A DNA stretch of 64,000 bases from a virus. Below the pieces are notes generated by a model, which saw only the letters and a program-made list of their open reading frames with translations, was not told the origin of the DNA and searched no databases. Below, in pieces: positions 5,309 through 36,677 of the stretch (position 1 is its first letter; the number at the start of each line of letters is the position of its first letter). The DNA lies in the IMG/VR virus record IMGVR_UViG_3300029985_000017, positions 1 to 64,000 of that record. The stretch is one strand, 5' to 3'. Position numbers and translations under genes: made by a program.

Positions 5309-5385
5309 GCACGGTGGTCGGGGCTGGTTGCTCCAATGGGTCTTATAAGCCTATGACTCAGGTTCAATTCCTGAGCCGTGTACCA
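5309..5385 (+). tRNA. tRNA-Ile(UAU) with encoded CCA and atypical D-arm
   Basis: Acceptor GCACGGT/GCCGTGT-A-CCA; anticodon loop CTTATAA; T-arm TCAGG-TTCAATT-CCTGA. Confidence 0.8.
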
Positions 5386-18400: not shown

Positions 18401-19300
18401 TGAAGCATTTACAGCAAATGCATCAGTACCCGTAGCAACAATTAAAGCACCACGAGCAGTTGATTGGGCTTCAACAGTTTGTCCAGTAGTAACAGTTGGC
18501 TGTGTAGTGTTAAATACACCACCGATTTGGACTGGATTACCAGCTTTAGATGCACCGGAAGCAGAATCACCTTGAATGATCCAAGGAGGAGTTCCTTGTT
18601 GTACAGTCCAACTACCAGATTGTACTGCTGAAACCACATCAGATGATGTAAGCGGTCTAATTATTATTCTACCACTAGAATCTAGCTGTATAGCCGATTG
18701 TTGAGTAGTTGTTAAGGTTGGCAATGTACTATTATACTGACCGCCAACTAATTGCGAAAAAGAAGCGACAGTTCCAGGAGTAACTGGACCATCTGACTGA
18801 TCTTTAGTGATCCAAGGTGAAGTGCTTTGAGTAACCGCAACTGTCCATGCTCCTGATTGAGAAACTGCCAGGGCGCTTTGGTTAGATGCAATGGTCACAG
18901 GCAATGAAGCAGCCATCAATGCTTGACCAAGCGTAATAGCAGATCCGCTTACTTGTGTCAAGTTCATGGTCCAAGGACCACTTGCTTGAGTTACTGCACC
19001 AATTGTGTTTGCGCCAGCAGGAATAGAAGTTCCAAGAACAACTATTTGGCGACCAGAAGAATCTAATTGAATGGCGGCTTGTTGCCCGTTGGTAAGCGTA
19101 GGGAGTGCGGTATTAAATATGCCGCCCCCAAGAGAGGAAACTGTAGCCGCTGTGCCACCAGTAGCTGATCCGCTAGACCAATTGATGACTTGAAGGTTTC
19201 CATTTGCGTCCGCACCAACATAATTAACACGATCGCCGACAGAATCCTGTCCGACGATTTTTACTTCGCCATCCCTATCTATATAGTTTAGGTCTGCCAT
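15443..19300 (-). CDS. long modular fibre protein (about 1285 aa)
   Basis: Repeats TQSTSPW, FNT..PTLT.GQ..A.Q.DSSG, G.ITALN...GTWVGT; start moved to ATG 19300. Confidence 0.8.
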   Translation of the reverse strand: MADLNYIDRDGEVKIVGQDSVGDRVNYVGADANGNLQVINWSSGSATGGTAATVSSLGGGIFNTALPTLTNGQQAAIQLDSSGRQIVVLGTSIPAGANTIGAVTQASGPWTMNLTQVSGSAITLGQALMAASLPVTIASNQSALAVSQSGAWTVAVTQSTSPWITKDQSDGPVTPGTVASFSQLVGGQYNSTLPTLTTTQQSAIQLDSSGRIIIRPLTSSDVVSAVQSGSWTVQQGTPPWIIQGDSASGASKAGNPVQIGGVFNTTQPTVTTGQTVEAQSTARGALIVATGTDAFAVNASQSGTWNIGTVATITNPVAVTQSTSPWVTKDQSDGSVAAGTAASFSSLAGLVFNTAAPTLTTGQQVALQGDSSGNLLVNLKTALPAGANTIGAVTQASGPWTQNLTQVGGSAIALGQTTMSASFPVTIASNQSALPVSQSGTWTTGRTWTLASGTDSVSVVQSTSPWVVSSTPANLGYDTNWGTVGATTLRTASIIGNQSGLANFGAGTTGAQTLRVAANTYDGFGNAITSASNGNAGQQLLNVQVPNTTVAPVALNALNAFVSIAMAGLQTVGFQLAAGTFIGTVTPQCSIDGGTNWVTCSFLNPATGGISNSFTFTTSNTLTILGIVPVSGSTNVRVIVTAYTSGTASSILSASEALSSTSQSDFIDGSGTITALNQTVIAVTAGYGSSFFNITGTWVGTITFQANNGDGVWENIYVYLSSTGSYTSSSTTVNSTAQLNCAGYYQVRAIATAWTSGTATVSWNTAAYPHQLQIYNPNSPLNVLTNAYTLDGNGNIIGSSAQTGASLYTIKPDNSTTGTLGALNATLNLPINDVSSAYALITGTWVGTIQFQGSVNGTNFVPLEAVQGGPTNAYSTAGFTANGGVRIALPAGFTSIQAVMTAYTSGTATVVINASAAPANVEVVQFNAANLSVLNNGSVTTAAPTYSTSTNQPLSLNTSGGLRVSGVTGIIDALTTQNVTTPASAIAVLGQFNTTPTTISSGNSSPLQLDNAANLLTNVKVIATDSDKNVTGTITALNGTVVIAANGTSSVNASVSGTWVGTLVMEGQSGDGIWYALAVGNPNGGLNISSFTANNLYTVGSGGFTQVRVRASAYTSGTVNVTMDASSGSAQTLAVDANGNQQIVGNVVSGTADSGNGVKTSAVYNSTLPTFTNGQRADNQSDANGAQLVSTKVPRTYSAPTTALVNTTSTLILAANANRKGLYLSNTTATQQISFGFNGNAAAYQYGLTLFPGEKFWMDEYSFSTGAIYAITSGSTTYIGIQEIT

Positions 19301-19317
19301 ATAACCTTTTATATCAT

Positions 19318-19350
19318 AAAGGGGATATGCCTTTTTAAGACACATCCCCT
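19318..19350 (-). terminator. stem-loop, likely terminator/attenuator
   Basis: AGGGGATGTGTC...GGCATATCCCC-TTT on minus strand. Confidence 0.55.
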
Positions 19351-19381
19351 CTATTAACTATTTCTTAATAATAATTAAATA

Positions 19382-20629
19382 TTAAACTTCTGTGCCTGAG
19401 ATAGTCGAATAAACATCCATAGCTTTTTTATCAACGTTTGTACGAATAATTTGAACTGTTGCTCCAGATCCGCTTTCTAAGAAAACTAGTTCATCCAAAT
19501 CAATAGTAATATTTGGGGTTGCAGTGGAATTAAACCCAACCCATAGAGTACTATAAGTAGAACCATCTGGAGAAACTTGAACTTCGATTTTCAACGCACC
19601 AGAAGCACTGGCCCAGATTTTTTTACCTTGAAAAGTCTTGGCAGCAGTAATAGTATATACATGATTACTACTTGCACCGGCTGCCAATGCAGCAACAGTA
19701 TTATAATTATTAACAGAAGTACCTACAAGAGCACCTGTAATTGTTACCGGAACAGGATTCGTAGCAGATACATTTGCACCTGCAACAGCTAGATTAGCAG
19801 CTACACGAAGGGTTTGTGCTCCAGTTGCTCCATTATTAAAATCAGCAGCGCCAGTAGCATTACCAATTTGCGCAGCGGTTCTAATAGTAGAAGCACCAAC
19901 TGTACCATAATTAGTATCTACAGTTGCAGGAAAATTATTAACACTAGTAACCCATGGACTTGTACCCTGATTAACAGAACCAATATTATTTGAACCAGCA
20001 GGAAGAGGTTGAGTAATATCTACTTTAACTTCTCCAGATGCAGTGATAGAAGCAGTATTTGTGCCATCTGTAAGCTTTACAAACCAACCGTTAGCAGCCG
20101 TACCAGGAGCACCTTGATTAGCACTTACTCTAAGAGTTTGAGCACCGGTTGCACCAGCATTGAAATCTGCTGCACCAGTTGCATTACCAATTTGAGCAGC
20201 GGTTCTAAGAGTATCAGCACCTACAACCCCATAATTAGTATCATATCCAAGACTTGCAGGAGAAACGGCGACTAGCAAATAACCACTAGAGTTTAATTGT
20301 AAAGATGACTGTTGTCCATTTGTAAGAGTAGCTGGAGTAGCATTGTAAATCCCACCGGCTAAACTAGAAAAAGCAGCCGCAGTACCGGGAGCAGCAGGTC
20401 CAATACTAGGATCTACAACCTGTAGCCAATAACTAGCACTTAAATTTTGATCGCCAATTGCGTTTCCGGAAATATCTTTTAGAACTGAAAACTGGCTACC
20501 AAACGTGTCAACAGCAGCCTGTTGGGTAGTTGGGTTAGTAGCATCACCAAGCTTAATAATTACGTCTTGGTATACGCTTTGACCAACGAGTTCTGTTCTA
20601 ATGGGAAGGGCGCTATTAAAATCACTCAT
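19382..20629 (-). CDS. fibre/decoration-like structural protein
   Basis: Two DTNYG.VGA.T.RTAAQIGNATGAADFN repeats, also present in the long fibre. Confidence 0.75.
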   Translation of the reverse strand: MSDFNSALPIRTELVGQSVYQDVIIKLGDATNPTTQQAAVDTFGSQFSVLKDISGNAIGDQNLSASYWLQVVDPSIGPAAPGTAAAFSSLAGGIYNATPATLTNGQQSSLQLNSSGYLLVAVSPASLGYDTNYGVVGADTLRTAAQIGNATGAADFNAGATGAQTLRVSANQGAPGTAANGWFVKLTDGTNTASITASGEVKVDITQPLPAGSNNIGSVNQGTSPWVTSVNNFPATVDTNYGTVGASTIRTAAQIGNATGAADFNNGATGAQTLRVAANLAVAGANVSATNPVPVTITGALVGTSVNNYNTVAALAAGASSNHVYTITAAKTFQGKKIWASASGALKIEVQVSPDGSTYSTLWVGFNSTATPNITIDLDELVFLESGSGATVQIIRTNVDKKAMDVYSTISGTEV

Positions 20630-20650
20630 ATTTTTTCCTTATTTATAAGT

Positions 20651-20839
20651 TTAGTTACTGGATTGAGCTTCGCTTATTCTAGCTAAAAGCTCCTGTTCTT
20701 TGGCCAATGATACGTCCACACTTTTTTGTATTTTGTCAATTTGATCTTGCATTTCCAAGATTCTTAGTTCTTGCTCTTCTCTAGCCGCATTAACCCTTTT
20801 ATACTCTACTTGAATTTTTTTAAGTTCGTATGGACTCAT
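20651..20839 (-). CDS. small coiled-coil protein
   Basis: Heptad pattern; late motif at 20857-20864. Confidence 0.7.
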   Translation of the reverse strand: MSPYELKKIQVEYKRVNAAREEQELRILEMQDQIDKIQKSVDVSLAKEQELLARISEAQSSN

Positions 20840-20856
20840 AAATGACTACCTTCCTA

Positions 20857-20864
20857 TAAAGATT
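20857..20864 (-). promoter_or_regulatory. late promoter motif AATCTTTA
   Basis: Recurrent motif. Confidence 0.7.
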
Positions 20865-20879
20865 CTTTTCATTCAAAAA

Positions 20880-21770
20880 TTATGCTGGAAATACAAGTAC
20901 TTGTATGCGAGCTTCAAAACTAGCAGCCATAGGTCTTACGTTATAAACTTGAACTTGAATAGTATTTCCAGCCGTTAATATTAAACCCGTATCATTCCCA
21001 GTTTCAAAATTAAATTCACCAGTTAGATCTCCACCAAACATAGTTCTAGCAGTATCTTGTGGCACACCATTTATAAATAAGTCATATCTAGCAATATTCT
21101 CTCCAGAAAAAGCAGCTCTTTGAAAAATACCTTGTTTTCCTGCAGGTATTGTATAATTAACAATAAAAGCCGTGGCTCCAGATGCCAAGCTAATAAGCTC
21201 ATTGTAAGTATTTACTACTGTGGTATTAGGACTAGGTGTAGATTCGACTATAACGTTAATAGAGCCATCAGGATTAACTACAAGCTCATTATTAGAAGGG
21301 GATGGGCCAATGATGTGGACATCACTGATGGCTATAGAGCCCGCTATAGCTACAGGGATGGGGTTAGAATCGGTATAGATGTTACCATAGCCATCGACCG
21401 GTATAACCCTATCAGCCATGACTGGAGCAGGCATATAGACGGTATTATAGTGGTCATCCCCAGGGATAGGAAAATTGTTTTGTTCTGGTGCTGAAATTGT
21501 GGCACTTGAAGCAACCGTATATGCTGTAAGGTCGCTTATATTTTTAGGAGAAGCATTTAAACTATTATTGGTTGGACCAACAATAAGTTGGGTGTTACTT
21601 AGGATATTTTTGACTTGAAATTTAGCTTGTGGAAGGGTATTGGATTGCAGATTAACAGTCTGCTTTATGTAAAAACCAGTAGTATCGGCGATCGTAACGA
21701 CGCCTAAGGACGTACCATCGGCGATAAAAGTCTGCGGAGAAACCGCAGCTAGTTTCTGTTCAAAAGCCAT
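20880..21770 (-). CDS. virion structural protein
   Basis: Beta-rich; L.VNPDGSINV motif; start moved to ATG 21770 after AAGGA. Confidence 0.7.
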   Translation of the reverse strand: MAFEQKLAAVSPQTFIADGTSLGVVTIADTTGFYIKQTVNLQSNTLPQAKFQVKNILSNTQLIVGPTNNSLNASPKNISDLTAYTVASSATISAPEQNNFPIPGDDHYNTVYMPAPVMADRVIPVDGYGNIYTDSNPIPVAIAGSIAISDVHIIGPSPSNNELVVNPDGSINVIVESTPSPNTTVVNTYNELISLASGATAFIVNYTIPAGKQGIFQRAAFSGENIARYDLFINGVPQDTARTMFGGDLTGEFNFETGNDTGLILTAGNTIQVQVYNVRPMAASFEARIQVLVFPA

Positions 21771-21779
21771 TTTTTCCAA

Positions 21780-21860
21780 TCCTTACCAGAGGTTAGGAAC
21801 TATTGCCACCAATAGCAGTACTCTTGACCCACGTCAAAAGCGCTTACACATAGTGCAAGC
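21780..21860 (-). ncRNA. structured 5' leader of four tandem hairpins
   Basis: GCTTGCAC/GTGTAAGC; GCTTTTGAC-GTGG-GTCAAGAGT; CTATTG-GTGG-CAATAG; TCCTAACC/GGTAAGGA. Confidence 0.6.
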
Positions 21861-21867
21861 TATAAGG

Positions 21868-21875
21868 TAAAGATT
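21868..21875 (-). promoter_or_regulatory. late promoter motif AATCTTTA
   Basis: Recurrent motif, just before the hairpin leader. Confidence 0.7.
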
Positions 21876-23595
21876 AGTTTGGATTAAAACTCCTTCGTTT
21901 AGGATAAGGAATAGACTTTCCAAAGATAGATTCATAAATTAAATTTATAATTTTCTTATCTATTTTATTTTTACCTAAAATCAGCACATATTTTCCTTTA
22001 GGCGCTTCGGTAACTTGTTCACAATTTTGCATATGAACTTTTCCCTTTTTCGTTAAAATACTATATATTTCTGAAGGAATAGCTTCTTTATTCATATATT
22101 TATTGCTTTTTGTCCATTCTTTTTCCCAAACTATTCCCAATTTTTTGGCATAATGCCTAAAAGTAGAAGTTTTTCTAAAATGTCTGCTATTAACTAATTT
22201 TCCATTTTCTAATCTATATCGCACTTTAGCACCAAAATATCCCCCTAAATAATTAAAATTACAAGCTTGATAGATAGTTCCGATTTCTCCTGCGGCATGA
22301 TCTGAATAACCAAAAAATAGTCTTTTGGTAGTATTTTTAACCATCCATCTACAAGAATACATTAATAATTTAGAACCTAAATTTTTAGGTGTCCAAGAAG
22401 CCGTAGCCCCTCTTGCAATTTGAGCTTCTAATTTAGAGCCTTCTTTTGTATTAGTATATGCATTAGGTTCTGCAATAATAATAACACCACCTAAAAAGTT
22501 TTTAGTCCTAGCTGTAAAAATCCATTTGGGAGAATAACCTATGGTACCGAGCCATTCATATTTTTGTATAAAAATACGGTGTTCTTCGGTAAATTTTTCG
22601 ATTTCAAAATCAAACTCCTCAATAGCAGAGTCTATAGGCATTCCTAGATTAATATCTTCTAATCTTGTATCTAACTTTCTTTTATATTGATGACATTCCC
22701 CAACATTAATATTGCCGTCTACAAAAGTATTTCCTTTACTTTCATTTTGATATTCTGGCAAATATTGTAAATTCCATGGAACGTGGAGTCCACATACGTT
22801 TTCTCCACCGATAGGAATTATGTGATCTACGCAGTTCCCATTAGGTCTATCCCTATATATTTGTTTAATTTCTTCTATTTGTTTAATAGAAAGCCATTGA
22901 GGCATAGCTTGTTTTTTTCTAGCCCTATAATTAGCGGTTCTAGCAACTTTTTCTTTCTTTGTTTTTTGAGCGTACTTCTGTTCAATTTCTTTTCTTTTAG
23001 CAGGATTTTCGTTGGCCCATTTAATGGCTTTTTCTATATATTTATCTTTATTATTTTCATAATGTTTTTCATAGTTATACTGCGTTTTTTCTGGATTGTT
23101 TTCTCTATATTCAGTATTTCTTTCAATAATAACTTCTTTATTTTCTCCATAATAGATTTGGTAGCAGTCTTTGCAAGCCGATACGACCCCCGTAATTCTA
23201 TTGTTATTTTTATGAAAATCATCAATAGATTTAATAAGCTTACATTTTGAACATTCTTTTTTACCATCGACCACTGGTTTATGGTCTTTCCAACGTCTAG
23301 AAATAGCCTTTTTATTTTTTTCTTTGGAAAGTTTAATGCCATTTTCCTGAAAGATTTTTTGTAGGGAAGGTTTTTTAATACCAGTTTGTTCGACAATTTC
23401 CGAAATAATAAGGCCTTGAATTCTTAAAGCAATAGCTAATTCTACTTGTTCATTAGTATATTTCTTTTTTTGTGAAAGCCTTGTCTTTACACACTCATCA
23501 GAACAAATTTTAGTTCCATAGCGTTGTGTTTGAAAGTCTTTATTGCAAACTTCACAGTTTTTATCGTAGATATAAACATATTTTTTCTTGTTCAT
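21874..23595 (-). CDS. HNH endonuclease fused to Mom-family (GNAT-fold) DNA-modification domain
   Basis: Zn fingers, HTH, VDHIIP...CGLHVPWNLQ...N..K.N; C-terminal YSD..AGEIGTIYQACNF.YLG. Confidence 0.8.
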   Translation of the reverse strand: MNKKKYVYIYDKNCEVCNKDFQTQRYGTKICSDECVKTRLSQKKKYTNEQVELAIALRIQGLIISEIVEQTGIKKPSLQKIFQENGIKLSKEKNKKAISRRWKDHKPVVDGKKECSKCKLIKSIDDFHKNNNRITGVVSACKDCYQIYYGENKEVIIERNTEYRENNPEKTQYNYEKHYENNKDKYIEKAIKWANENPAKRKEIEQKYAQKTKKEKVARTANYRARKKQAMPQWLSIKQIEEIKQIYRDRPNGNCVDHIIPIGGENVCGLHVPWNLQYLPEYQNESKGNTFVDGNINVGECHQYKRKLDTRLEDINLGMPIDSAIEEFDFEIEKFTEEHRIFIQKYEWLGTIGYSPKWIFTARTKNFLGGVIIIAEPNAYTNTKEGSKLEAQIARGATASWTPKNLGSKLLMYSCRWMVKNTTKRLFFGYSDHAAGEIGTIYQACNFNYLGGYFGAKVRYRLENGKLVNSRHFRKTSTFRHYAKKLGIVWEKEWTKSNKYMNKEAIPSEIYSILTKKGKVHMQNCEQVTEAPKGKYVLILGKNKIDKKIINLIYESIFGKSIPYPKRRSFNPN

Positions 23596-23601
23596 GTATT
23601 T

Positions 23602-23629
23602 AATATATCATACATGATATAAAAGTCAA
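23602..23629 (-). promoter_or_regulatory. sigma70-like promoter (TTGACT...TG.TATATT), leaderless start
   Basis: TG lies 15 nt before the ATG at 23595. Confidence 0.65.
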
Positions 23630-23643
23630 GAAAAAAAGATAAT

Positions 23644-23680
23644 AAAAAACCCCCAATCCTACATAGTAAGATTGAGGGTT
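23644..23680 (-). terminator. rho-independent terminator after major capsid gene
   Basis: AACCCTCAATCTTAC/GTAGGATTGGGGGTT plus T-run. Confidence 0.85.
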
Positions 23681-23706
23681 AAGATTATTTTAATTTATTG
23701 ATTTAA

Positions 23707-25098
23707 TTAGCTTAATTGGCCAGTAATGTTAGAAATCAATACGTTTTTTCTTGGTTGATATGCAGCGAGTGATAAAAATCTAAAGTGGGCCTCTGGCAAA
23801 CTTAAATCTGAGACGGCCAATTTTAGTTTGCTATAAGGAGCAAGCTGAGCGAACCCAAGGGTGTTACCTTGGATCAAGAACCCAGTCACAGCGCCTGGCG
23901 AGAAGTTGCCAAGATCGGTGAACACTGGATTGCCACTTCCCTGCTTAATTTTACCAATGAACTTAGCATTGTGGTAGTTACCACCAAGCTCAGAACGGTA
24001 AACATTGTAATAAGCAGCTCCAGATGAAGCCGTAATCGTAACGGTAACTTTGTCCCCGTTAGCGGTTACAGTAGCAGTCTGAGGAGCGCTAGGAAGCGAT
24101 TCGCCCAAGATCGAGCAAGCCGTCGCATAGTACACATACGCACCAGCAAACAACATCGATCCAGCAGCGCCTGCATCAGCTACAGCGATAGCTGGAGCAG
24201 AAGGAGTTCCCATACGTGAACGAGCTGGCTGCGTCTTTCCAGACAAGAAACGTGAAGCTTCTAGAGAAACTACAGCGCTTGAAGTCCATTGAGTACGAAG
24301 ATGCGCACCGGTAGCTTCTTGAGCCGATCCAGCGAGCATGATACGTTCTTTAGCGAAAGCGATCTTGTTATAAGCTGACAAGCTGATAGGATCGAGGATA
24401 AGACGATCAGCAGCCCCCATGTTCATGGCAGAACGAACAGAAGAGTCTTCGATGATGGATTGCGTGAGCGTTCCATTAGCCGAAAGAACTACCGTCTGAT
24501 TCGAACCGAATTCAGCGAACATAAGATCTTGCGTATTCAACTGTCCATCAGACTGACGGATCTGTTGATCAACACCAATCATATTAGGCATTTGAGCTAC
24601 GCAGGTAGGGTTACCATCGAAAACACCAGCGTTTGAGAAATCTGATTGACCACGGAATGAGTCAAACTCGATATCCCCAGCAAGCTTCATAGCAGCATCA
24701 GCAGAAGAACGATCTTCAGCTTTAACGCCATCAAAAGCACCAATCATATTGGCAGCAACCGTAACACGACGAATCGTGCTGTAGTAAGCCATAGGAACCA
24801 CCGCACGGATGAAGTTCGAGACATCTTCTTCGCCGACGCCGCCTTCAAACTGGGCAGATCCACCAAAGATCCCGTAATCTAGTTGGCGATTGAATTGATG
24901 AAGTTGAGATTTAACTTCCTTGGAAGGAAGGATTTTCTGCAACTTAATATGACTATCATCAAAAGTGACATTCTGCATCACAGGCGAAAGATCTTCGACC
25001 ATGAGGGCTGCGCCCTGTTCCAAATTACCCGGAGAGGCCATGTAACTGCCTGCTTCAAGGGCTTTCATTAGTGACTGAAGTTGTTCAATCATTTTCAT
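23707..25098 (-). CDS. major capsid protein, SPO1/Twort (Herelleviridae)-like
   Basis: 463 aa; N-arm K-A...G....P.....GAAL..EDL; IE...F.G, FDG; Ig-like insert with YNVYR; strong terminator. Confidence 0.9.
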   Translation of the reverse strand: MKMIEQLQSLMKALEAGSYMASPGNLEQGAALMVEDLSPVMQNVTFDDSHIKLQKILPSKEVKSQLHQFNRQLDYGIFGGSAQFEGGVGEEDVSNFIRAVVPMAYYSTIRRVTVAANMIGAFDGVKAEDRSSADAAMKLAGDIEFDSFRGQSDFSNAGVFDGNPTCVAQMPNMIGVDQQIRQSDGQLNTQDLMFAEFGSNQTVVLSANGTLTQSIIEDSSVRSAMNMGAADRLILDPISLSAYNKIAFAKERIMLAGSAQEATGAHLRTQWTSSAVVSLEASRFLSGKTQPARSRMGTPSAPAIAVADAGAAGSMLFAGAYVYYATACSILGESLPSAPQTATVTANGDKVTVTITASSGAAYYNVYRSELGGNYHNAKFIGKIKQGSGNPVFTDLGNFSPGAVTGFLIQGNTLGFAQLAPYSKLKLAVSDLSLPEAHFRFLSLAAYQPRKNVLISNITGQLS

Positions 25099-25119
25099 TT
25101 CTCCTTTTAAAAAGACACC

Positions 25120-25974
25120 TTATTTAAGCAGGTGACTAATACTGTTAACGTTGACTTTGCTGCCCAGATAAAATGCGTTAATTGCATCTCTATCAGATTT
25201 TTTAAGACTAGGATCTGCTGTCTTAGCCTTAAGAATTTCATGGATTTCCTTATCAGAAAGCTTCTTTTCTTCAGTGTGCGCTTCCGATTTTTGGATAACG
25301 TCCAATGAATTGATTGCTTTACCTTGAGGCACTGTCTTTTTAGCAAGTGCCGTCAAGAACTCCTTAATTGCTGCTTTTTCAGCTTTTTCAGCTGCTAATT
25401 CAGACTTAAGAAGTTCCATTTCTGTGTTTTCTGATTTTTCCATTTGCATTCCTTCTGCCTTACTAGCTGGTGATTTAGCACCAGGACCGTCCTTAGGCGC
25501 ACAAGCAGACTCTTCGCCACCACTTTTGTGGCCTGCATCTCCCATGTCCTTAGGCTTTTCGGCCTTTTCCATCTCGGCTGGCTTTTCTTCAGATTTACCC
25601 ATACACTTTTGAATACAACCATGATGAGCAGCTAGTTCACCTTTTGACATTGAGCGATACATTTTTTCCATGTGCTCCATGTCTTCGGCATCGTAGTCAT
25701 GGCCTTGATGCTCTTCGCCTTCTTTGCCATGCTCTTCATGTGATTCTTTACCTTCTTCATGATGCTCTTCAGAACTGTGTTCCTTGGCTTCATGTTTAGG
25801 TTCTTCTTTATGTTCAGGCTTTTCTTCGTGCTCTTTATGCTCTTCTTTATGGTCTTTTTCACCATCTTCAGATTTAGCAAGAGAGCTAGATTCTGACTTA
25901 GCAAGCTGAGAGGTAAACGCTTCTTCTACCTGAGCGATAAGATTTGCGACATCTTTTTCGGTATAACGTTGCAT
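25120..25974 (-). CDS. scaffold/core protein
   Basis: Charged His/Glu-rich protein directly upstream of MCP with nine hydrophobic-x-K(S/A/G)(E/D) motifs. Confidence 0.7.
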   Translation of the reverse strand: MQRYTEKDVANLIAQVEEAFTSQLAKSESSSLAKSEDGEKDHKEEHKEHEEKPEHKEEPKHEAKEHSSEEHHEEGKESHEEHGKEGEEHQGHDYDAEDMEHMEKMYRSMSKGELAAHHGCIQKCMGKSEEKPAEMEKAEKPKDMGDAGHKSGGEESACAPKDGPGAKSPASKAEGMQMEKSENTEMELLKSELAAEKAEKAAIKEFLTALAKKTVPQGKAINSLDVIQKSEAHTEEKKLSDKEIHEILKAKTADPSLKKSDRDAINAFYLGSKVNVNSISHLLK

Positions 25975-26013
25975 AGTTTACTCCTCTTGTTCTTGTTCTC
26001 GTTTCGATTAACC

Positions 26014-26493
26014 TTAGTTTCCTTTTGTAGGCCAGTAAAGTTGATCGATGCTGAGAGCAGGAGCAGCCAAAGAAGCAGCTGCCGATGCTTGAGTAACAGC
26101 AGTTCCATTAGCGATTGGAGCAAGATTGTATTGAACACCAAATGGGAAAAGCTCCCATTTTACGGTATCAAGATCAACTTGAGTAGGAATTGGAGCGCCA
26201 GCGCCATTCAATTCATAAGAAATTGAAGAAGTAGAAGGCGTATAAGCAAGTTCAGGATTTCCGAAGATATCCGTGCTCACCATTGGGACCTGTTGCAAAT
26301 AAATAAGAATTACTGGGCTGCCTTCAGCAAGACTGCCTGCAGCTGACAAGAAAATCAACTGTCCACCGTTAGAATCTTGGGCGTAACTTACAGTGTTAAC
26401 ACCACCAGCTTCAGCATTGTTTTGAAAACGAATAGCAAGCCTATTACCAAGGTCGCGGGCAATACTGGCAATTTTTTGATTTGAGGTAATCAT
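26014..26493 (-). CDS. virion protein heading the capsid operon (decoration candidate)
   Basis: Start moved to ATG 26493 after AAGGAG; AAGCTTTA variant late motif upstream. Confidence 0.65.
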   Translation of the reverse strand: MITSNQKIASIARDLGNRLAIRFQNNAEAGGVNTVSYAQDSNGGQLIFLSAAGSLAEGSPVILIYLQQVPMVSTDIFGNPELAYTPSTSSISYELNGAGAPIPTQVDLDTVKWELFPFGVQYNLAPIANGTAVTQASAAASLAAPALSIDQLYWPTKGN

Positions 26494-26654
26494 GTTTTTT
26501 CTAGCTCCTTTTAAAAGTTCAGCCCTATAGAGGGCACGTAAGCATACGTATCTATTAGTAAAGCTTAATGCTCCCATAGCTAAAATGAATGATATCAAGT
26601 ATTTAGAAGAAAGAAAGCTGTTGACTTTTATTAAAGATATGATATATATAGAAT

Positions 26655-27317
26655 ATGAGACTGATAGCAATTTCTGATACTCATTGTAGAATTCGGAAAG
26701 TAAAAATACCTGATGGTGATCTTCTTGTACATAGTGGAGACCTTACTTTTAGAGGCGATATTCAAGAAATCTCTCAAGAATTAAGAGCATTAGGCGCTGT
26801 AGCCAAGAAATTTAAGCATGGCTGCATCTTTATAAGCGGTAATCACGATTGGCTTGGAGAACGTAATCCTAGTTTAATGAAACAAATGGCTATAGATGAG
26901 GGTTTAATTTATTTAGACCATTCTTCTATTCAAATAGAAGGCATCAACATATTCGGCTCTGCTTATACACCAGAATTCTGCAATTGGGCTTATAATGTTC
27001 CTAGAGGACCTGCATTAGCTCAAAAGTGGGCTCAAATCCCTGACGACACTAATATTCTTGTCACCCACGGACCTCCAATGGAAATTATGGATATAGTCAA
27101 TCGGTATGATCCCTTTAATGGCTGGAGTATAGAACATGTTGGATGTGAAGATTTATCCAATAGAATTAAAGAACTAAAAGATCTTAAACTCCATTTATTC
27201 GGCCACATACACGGCTCATACGGCCAAATTAAAATTGGGGATATTACTTATATCAATGCTTCTATATGTACTGAAGAATACAAGCCTTTTAATGCTCCAA
27301 TCTCTTTTGAGTTATAG
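26655..27317 (+). CDS. calcineurin-like metallophosphoesterase (MPPED-like)
   Basis: SDTH, GD, GNHD, THGPP, GHIH. Confidence 0.92.
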   Translation: MRLIAISDTHCRIRKVKIPDGDLLVHSGDLTFRGDIQEISQELRALGAVAKKFKHGCIFISGNHDWLGERNPSLMKQMAIDEGLIYLDHSSIQIEGINIFGSAYTPEFCNWAYNVPRGPALAQKWAQIPDDTNILVTHGPPMEIMDIVNRYDPFNGWSIEHVGCEDLSNRIKELKDLKLHLFGHIHGSYGQIKIGDITYINASICTEEYKPFNAPISFEL

Positions 27318-27384: not shown

Positions 27385-29226
27385 ATGGCTTTATCCCAAA
27401 ACACCGTTCTATATCTTCAAGACGCTCTTACTGACGTAGCTGCTGGTAATGAATTGGCAAATGCAATCAACAATCGTTTGGTCCTTTCTACCAACACTTT
27501 CAATAGGTTAGTAGCAGCTCTTACAAACCCTGCTGCAGCAGCTGATTTTCAAGCTGCTATGTTGGGCCAATACATCCTTACCCCTACCGATATTCAATTT
27601 CTCATAAGTGGATTTGATTGCACAAGAAATCCTGATATGCTGGCAGATATTTTAGCTAACATGCCTGTATCACCTAATACTTTTCCATTGCCTCCACGAA
27701 ATGTGACGATGCCCGCTGGTTTTACCATCTCACCTTCTTATGTAGGACCTTCTCAGCAACTTCTCGCAGCTCTTACTCTTCCAGCTGGCAGCACCTTTCC
27801 AAATTTCGGTCCCGGCGCTTACTTTATTGTTTCTACTGCTGGAAATACTAATCAGTATGATGTTTGGTATAATGTGACTGGCGGTACTAACACTAATCCA
27901 GCTCCTATCGGATTTACCGGCATCGAAGTTACTATTGGTGCAAGCGATTCGGCAGCTACTGTTGCAACTAAAACCAATACAGCTTTGGCAGCTCTTGCAG
28001 CAGCCAGCACTTCTGTAACTGGCGCAGTAGTTACTATTGCTCCTACCACCGTTCCTTCTGCAGCAGTTGCCATTCCTACGTTTACTCCTTCTGCTGGAAC
28101 GTATGGGAGCACTCAAACGGTAGCCATTAGCTCTGTTACTCCTGGAACTAGCATCTATTACACCACCGATGGATCTACCCCTTCTACTTCAAGCACAGCC
28201 TATTCAACGCCAATTACTGTTAGCGCTAGCCAACAAGTTAAAGCTATTGCCGTTAAAACTGGTTTTGCTAACTCTACTATTGGAACCGCTGCTTTTATTA
28301 TCGGCGGCTCTACGGTTGCAACTCCTACTTTCTCCCCAGTTGCTGGAACTTACTCTGGAACCCAATCGGTTACGGTTAGTTCTTTGACTGCTGGCGCAGC
28401 TTTTTATTACACATTGAATGGATCAACTCCTACTACGGGAAGTACTCTTTATACTGGCCCAATCTCTGTAAATCAAAGTGAAACAGTTAAAGTTTTGGCA
28501 ACCCATGCAGGTCTTACCAATTCTACAGTAGCTTCTGCAGCTTATACTATTACGGCTATCGGCCCAGCTCTCCCAAGTTTGGGTGCAGCAGCTACGTACA
28601 GGATTCTGTCTGAAGCTGGTATTAGTACTACGGCTGGAACGGCTATTACAGGAAATATTGCTGTAAGCCCTATAGCTCATACGGCGATTACTGGATTTAC
28701 GTATACGCCAAATCTATCAGCAACTTTTGGTACAGCTACTCAAGTATCTGGAGGAGTATATACCCCAGACAATCTATCGCCTACTCCAGCAAATTTGACC
28801 ACTGCAGTTGCGAACATGGGAACGGCATATACTAATGCTCAGGGACTTACGTCTCCTACCCAGCTAAATCCTGGATCAGGAGCTTTGGGTGGCCTTACAC
28901 TTACTGGCGGTCTTTATAAGCTAACAGTACCGACCTCTATCGCTGGAACACTCACCTTAAGCGGTGGACCTAGCGATACTTGGGTATTCCAAATGTCATC
29001 CACGTTCACTATGGCGACATCTGCACAGATCGTTATGAGCGGTGGAGCTTTGGCATCAAATGTTTACTGGGTTGCTGCTGGAGCCATTACCTTGGGAGTT
29101 TCCTCTAGCTTCAGTGGTATCGCTCTTAGTGCCACTAGCATTGCGGTTCAAACGTCTGCAACGGTACACGGTCAACTTTTTGCTCAGACAGCTGTTACCC
29201 TTGACGATAACGCAATCGGTAACTAA
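27385..29226 (+). CDS. late protein with two Fn3-associated/CHB_HEX_C-like domains and a C-terminal DUF3494 ice-binding domain
   Basis: ATPTFSP.AGTY...YYT.DGSTP x2; LG.AA.Y.IL...GI...GNI.VSP, TWVFQ, NVYW, GQLFAQTAVTLD. Confidence 0.88.
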   Translation: MALSQNTVLYLQDALTDVAAGNELANAINNRLVLSTNTFNRLVAALTNPAAAADFQAAMLGQYILTPTDIQFLISGFDCTRNPDMLADILANMPVSPNTFPLPPRNVTMPAGFTISPSYVGPSQQLLAALTLPAGSTFPNFGPGAYFIVSTAGNTNQYDVWYNVTGGTNTNPAPIGFTGIEVTIGASDSAATVATKTNTALAALAAASTSVTGAVVTIAPTTVPSAAVAIPTFTPSAGTYGSTQTVAISSVTPGTSIYYTTDGSTPSTSSTAYSTPITVSASQQVKAIAVKTGFANSTIGTAAFIIGGSTVATPTFSPVAGTYSGTQSVTVSSLTAGAAFYYTLNGSTPTTGSTLYTGPISVNQSETVKVLATHAGLTNSTVASAAYTITAIGPALPSLGAAATYRILSEAGISTTAGTAITGNIAVSPIAHTAITGFTYTPNLSATFGTATQVSGGVYTPDNLSPTPANLTTAVANMGTAYTNAQGLTSPTQLNPGSGALGGLTLTGGLYKLTVPTSIAGTLTLSGGPSDTWVFQMSSTFTMATSAQIVMSGGALASNVYWVAAGAITLGVSSSFSGIALSATSIAVQTSATVHGQLFAQTAVTLDDNAIGN

Positions 29227-35250: not shown

Positions 35251-36180
35251 ATGAAAAAGAATGCTAAGACCTTCCTAGATAAAACTTTAGGAAGTGACTT
35301 TTTAGAGTCGCTTGGCACTTCTTTGTCAAAATCTGAAGTATATAAACAAGGTACTAGAACTGTTACAGATACAGATGATCTATTCCAAGGTTTGCAAATT
35401 GTACCTAGGGCATTGTTGAGTTTATTGGTTCGTGAATTATCCCCCATGCAAATTGGGGAAACTAAAGAAATTAGAATTCCTGGAAAAGAAGACACTATAG
35501 TTTCAGCTACAAAACATGAACGTGATTCATATTCTGGACAAGTAATACAAAATAATGTTAAAATAAATGATTTTTTGCATCGCTCACTACCTGGTCTTGG
35601 ATTAGTCTTAATGACCATGCTAGAATTGTATGATTTTGAAGATCTTGAAAAAAAGCCTTCTATTCATCAAGATAAACAAGCACAAGTTCAAAAAATAATT
35701 GACGATCGAATGCAACTCCATTCCCTTGTTAATCAGGTTGTAGATGGTAAAATGCTACAACGTGACGCCATAAATCAGTTACTTATGAGTAAATTGACAC
35801 AATTATTGCATGAACATGAACAAATTAAAGAAGACCATAAAGAAATTATGGCTGAAGCACCTAAAGAAAAGTCTCCAGTAGTTATAGTTTTAAAACCACA
35901 AAAAAAGTCTCTACCTCTTGCCAGTTTCGTAGAAAATAGAAAAAAGAAATTAACAAAGAAAGAATTTTTGGTAGATATTTGTAAGGGAGAAACAAGAGAA
36001 TGCCCAGATTGTGGGCATACTGTTTTTGATGGTTCCGGCCTCTCAAGCTGCATATGTTTTGGCGACTCTAAAAAAGTTTTCTTAAAAAAGACTGAAACTG
36101 GCATTAAGTTATCTTTTAGCCGCCAATGGGATGCAGAGAATATCTCTATGCTATTAGAAGTCTTGAGGAGCAAGTCATGA
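35251..36180 (+). CDS. probable head-associated protein with C-terminal zinc ribbon
   Basis: LSKSE, ICKGE; CPDC...CIC. Confidence 0.6.
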   Translation: MKKNAKTFLDKTLGSDFLESLGTSLSKSEVYKQGTRTVTDTDDLFQGLQIVPRALLSLLVRELSPMQIGETKEIRIPGKEDTIVSATKHERDSYSGQVIQNNVKINDFLHRSLPGLGLVLMTMLELYDFEDLEKKPSIHQDKQAQVQKIIDDRMQLHSLVNQVVDGKMLQRDAINQLLMSKLTQLLHEHEQIKEDHKEIMAEAPKEKSPVVIVLKPQKKSLPLASFVENRKKKLTKKEFLVDICKGETRECPDCGHTVFDGSGLSSCICFGDSKKVFLKKTETGIKLSFSRQWDAENISMLLEVLRSKS

Positions 36181-36677
36181 AAACTTGCAAAACCTGTAAA
36201 TTAGAAAAAGAAGATAGTTCTTATAGAATTTCTAAAAAAACAAAGAAACTTTTAAATCCTTGTTTTGACTGTAGAAAAAACATAAAAGAAGAATATAACA
36301 AAACTCATTTAGAAATTAATAATGCGACAAAAGATGCTTGGAAATTAAGAAATATAGATAAAGTAAGAGCCGCGAAAAAAAAATGGAAAGAAGAAAATAT
36401 AGGGAAAGTAAAAGCCGATAGGGCACGTAGAAAATTTCGCATAGAACAGGCAACACCTAAATGGCTTAGTTCTCAACAAATAGAAGCCATGGAATTCTTT
36501 TATTTATGGGCTGATCTTAGAAGTAAAAGCGGTGTAAAATATCATGTAGATCATATTATACCCATAGCAGGAAAAGATGTTTGCGGTCTCAATGTACCGT
36601 GGAATTTAGAAACTCTTAAAGAAGAAGAAAATCTTAAAAAAAGAAATAAATTGCTTTGGTGGAGGACAAATGGATAA
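36177..36677 (+). CDS. HNH homing endonuclease
   Basis: CKTC..CFDC; HVDHIIP...CGLNVPWNL...N..K.N; start after GAGGAG. Confidence 0.9.
   Translation: MKTCKTCKLEKEDSSYRISKKTKKLLNPCFDCRKNIKEEYNKTHLEINNATKDAWKLRNIDKVRAAKKKWKEENIGKVKADRARRKFRIEQATPKWLSSQQIEAMEFFYLWADLRSKSGVKYHVDHIIPIAGKDVCGLNVPWNLETLKEEENLKKRNKLLWWRTNG

What the first reader, a model, noticed from the sequence alone, without database searches (positions are those of the whole stretch)
21874..23595. HNH endonuclease fused to a Mom-like DNA-modification domain
Seen: one 573-aa ORF with Zn finger, HTH, Zn finger, an intact HNH motif and a C-terminal domain carrying YSD..AGEIGTIYQACNF.YLG. It sits right after the capsid terminator with its own promoter. 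Known: Mu Mom is a GNAT-fold enzyme that hypermodifies adenine and blocks restriction. Inference: either a single-chain cut-nonself/protect-self element against competing phages, or a homing nuclease carrying an anti-restriction gene.
Basis: partly seen in the sequence, partly recalled or inferred. Interest (0 to 1): 0.7.

Follow-up and report, generated by a model that had tools for sequence, protein, structure and literature searches.

The report
Mobile HNH nuclease–Mom fusion gene
A 163-kb phage carries, right after its capsid gene, a swappable gene that joins a DNA-cutting HNH nuclease to a Mom-type enzyme that chemically marks adenines; this pairing has been predicted before with another nuclease type, but this version is undescribed and untested.

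Summary
Window 21874-23595 (minus strand) is one 573-aa ORF: Zn finger, HTH, CxxC..CxxC Zn ribbon, helical repeats, HNH core (D257-H258..N275..N284), then a Mom module (aa ~300-573).

The Mom call is solid. Pfam PF25680 scores above its cut-off. The best fold match is the Mu Mom crystal structure 8bv8. Mu residues R111, S124, D149 and Y159 are invariant here, but essential R151 is replaced.

The fusion is not an assembly error: about 40 full-length homologues (40-72% identity) come from independent metagenomes, with both halves conserved (dN/dS about 0.1).

New here:
- The gene is a discrete, AT-rich cassette with its own promoter.
- It lies directly 3' of the major capsid gene in all 6 phage contexts examined.
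- It is sporadic among close relatives, where the same slot holds HNH-Mom, a REase-Mom fusion, HNH alone, or nothing.
- One distant phage has HNH and Mom as separate adjacent genes.

Nuclease-Mom fusions (REase type, jumbo phages) were already predicted to act like restriction-modification systems (Iyer et al. 2021). This is therefore a new variant of a known kind. Whether the HNH cuts unmodified DNA in general or serves homing is not resolved. Earlier first-stage notes of this scan flagged similar fusions on other DNA.

The parts
21874..23595 (-). Whole ORF, 573 aa (P0001): Zn finger-HTH-Zn ribbon-HNH-Mom fusion
   Evidence: about 40 full-length homologues
23488..23562 (-). N-terminal Zn finger (aa 12-36; C14, C17, C31, C35)
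   Evidence: absent in some homologues (P0013, P0014, P0032, P0033)
23320..23469 (-). Helix-turn-helix module (aa ~43-92)
   Evidence: three helices in the model; HTH_7 hits in homologues; 33-35% identical to the N-terminus of the REase-Mom proteins in the same slot of L011-L014
23158..23268 (-). CxxC..CxxC Zn ribbon (aa 110-146; C115, C118, C141, C144 invariant)
   Evidence: resembles the Zn ribbon of the beta-beta-alpha-Me enzyme Hpy99I (VIA Z 6.0, 46 aa, rmsd 2.8; hmmsearch E 0.09)
22852..23157 (-). Helical repeat region (aa 147-248, seven helices of about 14 aa)
22723..22848 (-). HNH (beta-beta-alpha-Me) core, aa 250-291: D257, H258, N275 invariant, N284 at 90% or more
21877..22698 (-). 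Mom-family GNAT module, aa 300-573. R395, S408, D432 and Y442 correspond to Mu R111, S124, D149 and Y159; A434 stands in place of Mu R151; the PYPKR tail is shared with Mu
23648..23680 (-). Intrinsic terminator of the capsid gene
   Evidence: conserved with compensatory changes
23602..23629 (-). Promoter-like site of the cassette (TTGACT, 16 nt, extended -10). Only 6 nt lie between the -10 and the ATG, and there is no Shine-Dalgarno sequence
23707..25098 (-). Major head protein gene, the conserved 5' neighbour
20880..21779 (-). g299, the 3' neighbour; in relatives without a cassette (L016, L028) its homologue follows the capsid gene directly

Best explanation
Shown: the gene encodes a bifunctional protein in which a complete phage-type HNH nuclease (Zn finger/HTH targeting module, Zn ribbon, helical repeats, HNH core) is joined by a linker of about 10 residues to a complete Mom-family GNAT. 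It is a discrete, AT-rich cassette with its own promoter. It is inserted exactly between the capsid gene's stop codon and the next conserved gene, and it is exchanged among phages. Inferred: the cassette is transcribed late with the head genes. Its Mom module modifies adenine N6 in replicated phage dsDNA, by analogy with Mu Mom, which transfers glycine from Gly-tRNA(Gly); the donor may differ here because Mu's essential R151 is not kept. Its HNH module cuts DNA that lacks this mark: the host chromosome, or co-infecting relatives without the cassette. The result would be a single-chain 'protect self, cut unmodified' module that also shields the packaged genome from host restriction. Breaks made in naive relatives, repaired from the cassette-bearing genome, would explain its spread and turnover at the post-capsid slot.
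For: Mom identity:
- PF25680 scores 40.1 bits against a cut-off of 27.1 and 43 bits in the genome scan.
- phrog_1384 matches at E 1.8e-11.
- The AF2 model (pLDDT 87) has Mu Mom 8bv8 as best Foldseek hit: E 7e-8, target TM 0.65, 244 columns, ahead of generic GNATs.
- hhalign against Mu Mom gives 92% probability.
- R111, S124, D149 and Y159 equivalents are invariant in 31 homologues, and the PYPK tail is shared. Residue roles are taken from PMC13219725 and PMC7261163.

HNH identity:
- phrog_1035 matches at E 1.9e-14 and phrog_26577 at 1.8e-14.
- tblastn hits annotated HNH endonucleases down to E 1e-16.
- The DH..N..N motif is invariant, and the model shows beta-beta-alpha at aa 254-285.

Both halves are kept by selection:
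- dN/dS is 0.06-0.12 in each module.

Coupling of nuclease and Mom:
- Two unrelated nuclease folds (HNH; Vsr/DUF559/MTES_1575-like REase) are each fused to Mom in the same slot of related phages.
- A second HNH subtype is fused in the 81-kb phage.
- HNH and Mom are separate adjacent genes in L055.
- None of the 12 Mom-bearing cassettes found in the slot (window, L017 and the 10 REase-Mom loci) lacks a nuclease domain.

Cassette behaviour:
- Homology to relatives breaks at the capsid stop codon and resumes 9 nt before the fusion's stop codon.
- Only 1 of 40 capsid relatives has the fusion.
- GC is 30.2% against an ORF mean of 38.1% (sd 4.0), rank 3-4 of 152.
- Fusion identity is decoupled from capsid identity: L052 has a 29% capsid match but a 40-46% fusion match.

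Late placement:
- The gene lies directly 3' of the major head gene in 6 of 6 contexts, across two capsid families. Mu mom is also late (PMC13219725).

The same logic was proposed for REase-Mom fusions (PMC7824862).
Against: - No activity of either domain has been measured, and no modification data exist for this phage.
- Mu's essential R151 is A434 here and is not conserved in the whole 'SDxxAGEIGTIYQACNF' subfamily. The chemistry, the donor, or even the activity may differ.
- Pfam's HNH models do not reach threshold, and fold searches of the N-terminal half give only weak HNH-type hits.
- The same HNH module occurs alone in the same slot (L019), as two other free-standing copies in this genome, and in relatives. 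This fits an ordinary site-specific homing nuclease that needs no protective modification.
- The sporadic distribution fits the homing reading equally well.
Confidence: 0.45

Rival explanations
1. Free-standing homing endonuclease with a hitch-hiking anti-restriction domain. The ZnF/HTH-HNH part is a site-specific homing (probably nicking) nuclease that copies the cassette into the post-capsid slot of naive relatives. The Mom part only benefits the phage by blocking host restriction, and so keeps the selfish gene from decaying. There is no functional cross-talk between the two activities.
For: - The gene shows the hallmarks of free-standing homing genes: sporadic presence among close relatives, clean insertion between conserved genes, its own promoter, and low GC.
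- The HNH module occurs alone in the same slot (L019, 52% identity to aa 40-289).
- Further free-standing copies sit near the head genes of relatives and elsewhere in this genome.
- PHROG families for the REase-Mom proteins are labelled 'homing endonuclease'.
- The Mom module alone is carried as cargo by other mobile elements (Bdellovibrionota integrative elements).
Against: - Independent fusion or adjacency of Mom with three different nuclease types is more than chance hitch-hiking predicts.
- No Mom-only cassette was seen in the slot.
- The target site and any homing are untested.
Confidence: 0.33
2. Homing nuclease whose self-immunity is supplied by hypermodification. The HNH recognises a site in or next to the conserved capsid gene that is also present in its own genome. 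The fused Mom domain modifies an adenine in that site, so only cassette-free genomes are cut and converted.
For: - This combines the two sets of evidence above.
- The constant position next to the capsid gene in phages of two capsid families would follow if the target lies in the capsid gene's 3' region.
- The fusion would ensure that no nuclease is made without its protector.
Against: - Purely inferential.
- HNH-only relatives in the same slot (L019) manage without Mom.
- The capsid genes of the two families are too different to share one target.
Confidence: 0.12
3. The HNH domain is not a weapon but a helper. Either it works with terminase in DNA packaging (as HNH proteins of HK97-like phages do), or it nicks or binds DNA to give the Mom domain access. 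Alternatively, one of the two domains is catalytically dead and serves only as a DNA-binding module.
For: - The gene lies in the head/packaging module.
- In L003 and L017 a terminase-like 619-aa gene follows the cassette.
- R151 is lost in the Mom module.
Against: - Most close relatives lack the gene altogether, so it cannot be an essential packaging factor.
- In the window, the terminase-like gene is elsewhere (45638-47494).
- Catalytic residues of both domains are invariant and dN/dS is about 0.1.
- Mu Mom works alone on dsDNA (PMC13219725).
Confidence: 0.1

Closest known systems
Bacteriophage Mu Mom (PDB 8bv8; Pfam PF25680)
   Same: - GNAT fold; it is the best structural match.
- R111, S124, D149 and Y159 equivalents and the C-terminal PYPK tail are kept.
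- There is an insertion at the place of Mu's essential HTH-like insertion.
- It is a late-gene setting in a phage.
   Different: - About 15-20% sequence identity.
- Essential R151 is replaced (A434), with an invariant E437 nearby.
- The insertion is longer.
- There is an extra conserved N-terminal motif (C301-x-Q303..D314).
- It is fused to a nuclease instead of standing alone.
- There is no Com-like translational regulator.
- The donor and product are unknown.
REase-fold nuclease-Mom fusions of jumbo phages (Iyer, Anantharaman, Krishnan, Burroughs, Aravind 2021, PMC7824862)
   Same: - One polypeptide joins an endoDNase to a Mom domain, and was predicted to act as restriction plus protection.
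- Such REase-Mom proteins (477-529 aa, phrog_3339/559) occupy the very same post-capsid slot in 10 relatives of this phage, and share the N-terminal Zn finger/HTH.
   Different: - The nuclease here is HNH (beta-beta-alpha-Me), not PD-(D/E)xK.
- The Mom module belongs to a different subfamily (no R151).
- The genome is 163 kb, below the jumbo range.
- I found no paper in the held library describing an HNH-Mom fusion.
Free-standing HNH homing endonuclease genes of phages (e.g. I-HmuI of SPO1, mobE of T4; from my own knowledge)
   Same: - An HNN-type HNH motif and an N-terminal DNA-binding module.
- AT-rich, with its own promoter.
- Inserted between conserved genes and sporadic among relatives.
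   Different: - It carries a second enzymatic domain of about 270 aa.
- Target and homing are untested.
Single-chain restriction-modification enzymes (Type IIG/IIL such as MmeI, BcgI; from my own knowledge) and T4's hmC plus EndoII/EndoIV strategy
   Same: The same logic: one element both marks its own DNA and cuts unmarked DNA. In T4 this is used to destroy host DNA.
   Different: The mark would be a bulky aminoacyl-derived adenine adduct made by a GNAT, not a SAM-dependent methyl group or a pre-replicative base replacement. The nuclease fold also differs.

Membership tests
Mom protein family (Pfam PF25680) | Score above Pfam gathering threshold | tested here: met
   40.1 bits against a cut-off of 27.1, E 4e-10, aa 399-483; 43 bits in the six-frame genome scan; 33 of 36 aligned homologues match
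Mom protein family (Pfam PF25680) | GNAT fold closest to the Mu Mom crystal structure | tested here: met
   Foldseek rank 1-2 is 8bv8 chains B/A: E 7e-8, target TM 0.62-0.65, 244 columns. Generic GNATs follow at E 2e-4 or worse. The model has pLDDT 87.
Mom protein family (Pfam PF25680) | Catalytic residues R111, S124, D149, Y159 (Mu numbering; PMC13219725, PMC7261163) | tested here: met
   R395, S408, D432 and Y442 are all invariant in 31 homologues
Mom protein family (Pfam PF25680) | Essential R151 (R151A is inactive in Mu, PMC13219725) | tested here: not met
   It aligns to A434, a variable position in the subfamily motif SDxxAGE. It is retained as D-N-R in the REase-Mom lineage.
Mom protein family (Pfam PF25680) | HTH-like insertion (Mu 175-209), essential for activity | tested here: inconclusive
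   A longer helical insertion lies at the equivalent place (helices 470-486 and 508-524). Equivalence was not tested residue by residue.
Mom protein family (Pfam PF25680) | Transfers glycine from Gly-tRNA(Gly) to adenine N6 of dsDNA | not testable with these tools
   Needs expression and nucleoside LC-MS
HNH / beta-beta-alpha-Me nucleases | D-H (general base) .. N .. N/H motif on a beta-beta-alpha element | tested here: met
   D257-H258 at the end of strand 254-256, N275 before strand 278-280, and N284 in helix 281-285. They are invariant or present in at least 90% of homologues.
HNH / beta-beta-alpha-Me nucleases | Significant match to a curated HNH profile or a solved HNH structure | tested here: inconclusive
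   PHROG endonuclease families are significant (phrog_1035 at 1.9e-14, phrog_26577 at 1.8e-14). Pfam HNH PF01844 is reached by only 1 of 36 homologues, at E 0.011. PDB hits are all HNH-type but weak: Hpy99I Z 6.0 / E 0.09, Cas8-HNH E 1.1.
Free-standing homing endonuclease genes | Sporadic presence among close relatives at a fixed site between conserved genes | tested here: met
   1 of 40 capsid relatives has the fusion. L016 and L028 have the neighbours directly adjacent. Homology breaks at the capsid stop codon and resumes 9 nt before the ORF's end.
Free-standing homing endonuclease genes | Cleaves the cassette-free allele and is copied into it | not testable with these tools
   Needs a cleavage assay on the empty site (L016-type junction) and co-infection crosses
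Nuclease-Mom restriction-modification-like fusions (PMC7824862) | EndoDNase domain and Mom domain in one polypeptide | tested here: met
Nuclease-Mom restriction-modification-like fusions (PMC7824862) | Nuclease of the REase (PD-(D/E)xK) fold | tested here: not met
   The nuclease is HNH-type. The REase version is found in relatives L011-L015, L020, L033, L035, L043 and L046.
Nuclease-Mom restriction-modification-like fusions (PMC7824862) | Nuclease blocked by the Mom mark | not testable with these tools
   Needs in vitro cleavage of modified versus unmodified DNA

The most novel reading that the evidence does not exclude
A homing-type nuclease whose immunity to its own cut is supplied by a fused DNA-hypermodifying enzyme rather than by target-site disruption. 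In addition, this Mom subfamily (no R151, invariant E437) may install an adenine adduct, or use a donor, different from Mu's Gly-tRNA-derived carbamoylmethyl group.
Probability: 0.15. Interest if true: 0.8.

Novelty: new variant of a known kind. Interest (0 to 1): 0.55.

Why it matters
Mom was shown only in 2026 to be a tRNA-dependent DNA-modifying GNAT, and nothing is known experimentally about its many multidomain relatives. This gene gives a compact, well-conserved test case: 573 aa, about 40 natural variants, and clear catalytic residues in both halves. It can be used to ask whether a bulky adenine adduct can serve as the 'self' mark of a phage-borne nuclease.

The post-capsid slot carries interchangeable HNH-Mom, REase-Mom, HNH-only and empty alleles. 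It is a natural experiment in how selfish nucleases and anti-restriction functions combine and move between phages. If the coupling holds, these enzymes could also become paired modification and cleavage tools.

Tried and rejected
Assembly chimera: rejected.
- About 40 full-length homologues come from JGI, ENA, Logan and NCBI assemblies, with a conserved junction and synteny.

Known phage genome:
- There is no megablast hit of 19000-27000 in INPHARED.
- No full-length protein hit was found there either; only the halves match separately.

Single-sequence PDB search:
- It found nothing relevant.
- The profile search found Mu Mom only weakly (E 0.011).
- Weak RecA C-terminal matches to the helical repeats were judged compositional.

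Fold search of the N-terminal half (model pLDDT 89.5):
- Foldseek gave no hit at E 0.001 or better.
- VIA wide gave only Hpy99I at Z 6.0, for the Zn ribbon.
- The HNH core is too small to be placed by fold.

Other checks that led nowhere:
- Pfam HNH models are below threshold.
- A repeated promoter motif was sought in the window; the count is no more than chance.
- A second Mom copy and a Dam-type methylase were sought in the genome; there is none.
- The genome carries a single tRNA (Ile-TAT) and no tRNA-Gly.
- The listing of cluster members gave no names or accessions.
- Supplements of PMC13219725 are not held, so I could not see whether its tested 'Homolog A/B' belong to this subfamily.
- Iyer et al. 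2009 (PMC2995806) is not held.
- Model coordinates are not exposed, so I could not look for an arginine that substitutes spatially for R151.
Full report
**1. What is there**

The window is the first 64 kb of a 163,229-bp IMG/VR virus record rated 99% complete. Its GC content is 38% and it carries a single tRNA.

Coordinates 21874-23595 hold one 573-aa ORF on the minus strand. Reading from the N-terminus, the sequence shows:
- a CxxC..CxxxC Zn finger at aa 12-36;
- a three-helix HTH at aa ~43-92;
- a CxxC..CxxC Zn ribbon at aa 110-146;
- seven helices of about 14 residues each, at aa 147-248;
- an HNH core at aa 250-291, with motif VDHIIP..GLHVPWNLQYLP..N..K;
- a linker of about 10 residues;
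- a domain of about 270 residues carrying YSD..AGEIGTIYQACNF.YLG and ending in PYPKR.

The gene upstream on the same strand (23707-25098) is a major head protein (phrog_752, E 6e-42). Between the two genes lie a strong terminator hairpin (23680-23648) and a TTGACT-16-TG-TATATT promoter-like site (23629-23602).

The hairpin is conserved in relatives with compensatory changes. The promoter keeps the same spacing in L017 and L003, and the 28-nt distance from the -35 element to the ATG is kept in L003. Only 6 nt separate the -10 element from the ATG, and there is no Shine-Dalgarno sequence. The mRNA may therefore be leaderless or nearly so.

**2. The fusion is real**

A search of 5.8 billion proteins returned about 40 proteins that cover 91-99% of the query at 40-72% identity. 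They come from JGI, ENA, Logan and NCBI assemblies, some on contigs of 138-159 kb.

In an alignment of 31 of them, both halves and the junction are conserved. The invariant positions include:
- the four Zn-ribbon cysteines;
- D257, H258 and N275;
- a long list in the C-terminal domain.

Against the two closest relatives, dN/dS is 0.06-0.12 in the N-terminal, HNH and Mom modules alike. Synonymous sites are saturated, so these are rough values.

An exhaustive profile search of 1.84 billion cluster representatives found about ten clusters (at 50% identity) with the full architecture. About a dozen more have HNH-Mom without the N-terminal module. Every sub-combination also occurs: HNH alone, HTH-HNH, Mom alone, and other N-termini joined to Mom.

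Read mapping could not be run, but it is no longer needed to exclude a chimera.

**3. The C-terminal half is a Mom-family enzyme**

- Pfam PF25680 scores 40.1 bits against a cut-off of 27.1. The six-frame genome scan gives 43 bits.
- PHROG 1384, 'Mom-like DNA modification protein', matches aa 358-569.
- An AlphaFold2 model built on the 31-sequence alignment has mean pLDDT 87.
- Its best Foldseek match in the PDB is the Mu Mom crystal structure 8bv8: E 7e-8, target TM 0.65, 244 columns. Ordinary GNAT acetyltransferases follow at E 2e-4 and worse.
- Profile-sequence alignment to Mu Mom gives 92% probability.

A multiple alignment maps the residues that mutagenesis has shown to matter in Mu (PMC13219725; PMC7261163, whose numbering is 10 lower):

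| Mu Mom residue | This protein | Status |
|---|---|---|
| R111 | R395 | invariant in the family |
| S124 | S408 | invariant in the family |
| D149 | D432 | invariant in the family |
| Y159 | Y442 | invariant in the family |
| H58 | H339 | nearly invariant; alignment of this stretch is uncertain |
| R151 (R151A is inactive in Mu) | A434 | not kept; a variable position |

The C-terminal PYPK tail is also shared with Mu.

The loss of R151 holds for the whole subfamily with the motif SDxxAGEIGTIYQACNF. That subfamily includes stand-alone members such as the Vibrio phage 501E54-1 protein. The other lineage found here, REase-Mom, keeps D-N-R.

So membership of the Mom family is met on four tests and fails on one defining residue. 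Activity is likely, given the strong conservation. The donor or the product could still differ from Mu's transfer of glycine from Gly-tRNA(Gly).

**4. The middle is an HNH nuclease module**

- PHROG families 1035 ('endonuclease VII', E 1.9e-14) and 26577 (E 1.8e-14) match.
- tblastn finds many stand-alone phage genes annotated as HNH endonuclease, down to E 1e-16.
- The D-H..N..N motif sits on a beta-beta-alpha element in the model.

Stand-alone genes of the same subfamily (152-194 aa) end just after this core. There are two more in this genome, at 36126-36677 and near 119918-120295. There are several near the head genes of relatives. The fused N-terminal part is therefore a complete nuclease of this kind.

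The curated evidence is weaker:
- Pfam's HNH models stay below threshold.
- A separate model of aa 100-300 (pLDDT 89.5) gives only weak matches, and all are to HNH-type proteins. These are the Zn ribbon of the restriction enzyme Hpy99I (Z 6.0, 46 residues, rmsd 2.8) and the Cas8-HNH and Cas9 HNH domains.

I count the motif test as met and the profile and fold tests as inconclusive.

**5. It is a cassette in a hot spot**

I fetched 40 IMG/VR loci whose capsid protein is 66-93% identical to the window's and asked what follows the capsid gene.

| Content of the slot after the capsid gene | Loci |
|---|---|
| Full HNH-Mom fusion | L017 only: 70% protein identity, while its capsid is 92% identical |
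| The HTH-HNH part alone (251 aa) | L019 |
| A different protein of 477-529 aa | L011-L015, L020, L033, L035, L043, L046 |
| None of these | the remaining loci (five are cut off soon after the capsid gene); in L016 and L028 the window's downstream gene (g299) follows the capsid gene directly |

The 477-529-aa protein has an N-terminal Zn finger/HTH that is 33-35% identical to aa 13-96 of the query. It has a Vsr/DUF559/MTES_1575-like PD-(D/E)xK nuclease motif. Its C-terminal Mom domain is of the R151-keeping kind. It belongs to phrog_3339 and phrog_559, which are labelled 'homing endonuclease' and 'HNH endonuclease'.

At the DNA level, homology to L016 and L013 stops at the capsid stop codon (window ~23701-23706). 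For L013 it resumes at window 21883, 9 nt before the fusion's stop codon. The replaced unit is thus exactly promoter plus ORF.

The ORF has 30.2% GC. The mean for the genome's 152 large ORFs is 38.1% (sd 4.0), which puts this ORF at rank 3-4. The free-standing HNH at 36126 is similarly AT-rich.

Fusion identity does not track capsid identity:
- Three phages with 91-93% identical capsids have fusions only 67-70% identical.
- A phage whose capsid is only 29% identical (L052) has a fusion 40-46% identical. That is as close as those of phages with 59-71% identical capsids.

**6. The position is constant even in unrelated phages**

In all six contexts with DNA that I examined, the gene lies about 100 nt downstream of the major head gene. 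These contexts are the window, L003, L009, L051, L052 and L008.

L008 is an 81-kb phage with a P22/SU10-like portal and a capsid of a different PHROG family, phrog_14242. A seventh context, without DNA, shows the same gene order.

In L055, a relative of that 81-kb phage, the slot holds two separate genes: an HNH of 224 aa and a Mom of 340 aa. Three other relatives have neither. The HNH of this second group is a different, more canonical subtype.

**7. Reading**

Nuclease and Mom are joined in five ways:
- fused with HNH subtype 1;
- fused with HNH subtype 2;
- fused with a REase-fold nuclease;
- fused with DUF7487/REase domains in proteins of 700-950 aa;
- encoded side by side in L055.

No Mom-only cassette occupies the post-capsid slot. 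[quoted passage not shown]

The late-operon position fits Mu, where mom is a late gene and acts post-replicatively on dsDNA (PMC13219725).

On the other hand, the cassette has every genomic hallmark of a free-standing homing endonuclease gene, and the HNH module alone can hold the same slot. The data do not separate three models:
- a general 'cut unmodified DNA' model;
- a site-specific homing model with Mom as cargo;
- a hybrid in which Mom supplies the nuclease's self-immunity.

I give them 0.45, 0.33 and 0.12, and about 0.10 to packaging-helper or dead-domain readings. The last is weakened by the gene's absence from most relatives and by the conservation of both catalytic sets.

**8. Comparison and novelty**

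The closest known items are:
- Mu Mom, for the enzyme;
- the predicted REase-Mom fusions, for the architecture and logic;
- phage free-standing HNH homing genes, for the genomic behaviour.

Full-text searches of the held library found no description of an HNH-Mom fusion. Two earlier first-stage notes of this scan flagged similar fusions on other genomes; both were unverified.

I rate this a new variant of a known kind. The concept is published and the components are known. The following appear to be new:
- the HNH version;
- its allelic exchange with REase-Mom at a fixed post-capsid slot;
- the split form;
- the R151-less Mom subfamily.

All of these can be tested directly.

**9. Limits**

- There are no activity, modification or expression data.
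- The host is unknown.
- Promoter and terminator are consensus-level calls, supported by conservation.
- dS is saturated.
- The census of the slot rests on HMMs that I built from a few sequences.

Noticed in passing
L013:7456-10686 (also L011-L015, L020, L033, L035, L043, L046 just 3' of the capsid gene): Relatives carry a different nuclease-Mom protein in the same slot. It combines a Zn finger/HTH, a Vsr/DUF559-like PD-(D/E)xK nuclease, and a Mom domain that keeps R151. In L013 and L014 it is followed by a phage GroEL-like chaperonin (588 aa, Cpn60_TCP1).
   Followed up: partly
L055:5368-6997: In an 82-kb phage, HNH (224 aa) and Mom (340 aa, P0096) are separate genes directly after the capsid gene. 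They overlap by about 60 nt in different frames. This is a split form of the fusion seen in L008.
   Followed up: partly
L066:1989-8238 and L080:2638-8312 (Bdellovibrionota chromosomes): The same Mom subfamily, here with a C-terminal HTH_17, is common in Bacteriovoracaceae and Bdellovibrio genomes. It sits inside what looks like an integrative element: FtsK/SpoIIIE, Replic_Relax, Mom-HTH, then two tyrosine integrases. There is no nuclease domain there.
   Followed up: partly
window 36126-36677 (+) and genome ~119918-120295 (-): There are two further free-standing HNH genes of the same subfamily in this genome (phrog_1035/26577). The first is wedged between genes and is also AT-rich (31% GC).
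   Followed up: partly
window 23595-23629 (-): Only 6 nt lie between the predicted extended -10 and the ATG, and there is no Shine-Dalgarno sequence. The same 28-nt distance from -35 to ATG is kept in L003. The transcript may be leaderless or nearly so.
   Followed up: partly
L003:9740-11599, L017:9571-11430 versus window 45638-47494: In two close relatives, a 619-aa protein with weak large-terminase similarity follows the cassette. In the window, g299 follows it, and an ORF of the same size (618 aa, similarity to the 619-aa protein not tested; no Pfam hit) lies 22 kb away. The 3' edge of the cassette may also be a rearrangement point.
   Followed up: no
L007:1666-2897 versus L008:4637-5851: The capsid gene next to an identical HNH-Mom protein (P0074) is called as two ORFs (66 + 315 aa) on one contig and as one ORF (404 aa) on another. 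This could be a frameshift, an assembly error or an insertion.
   Followed up: no
window 27385-29226 (+): A 613-aa protein has two CHB_HEX_C/Fn3-associated repeats and a C-terminal ice-binding-like domain (E 4e-58). L019 has a similar protein. It may be a fibre or an adhesin.
   Followed up: no
window 5309-5385 (+): The only tRNA in the 163-kb genome is tRNA-Ile with anticodon TAT. There is no tRNA-Gly that could feed a Mom-type reaction.
   Followed up: yes
window 21780-21873 (-): The 94-nt leader between the fusion's stop codon and g299 is rich in short hairpins. Another first-stage note (e1-5742369) covers it. I did not examine it.
   Followed up: no
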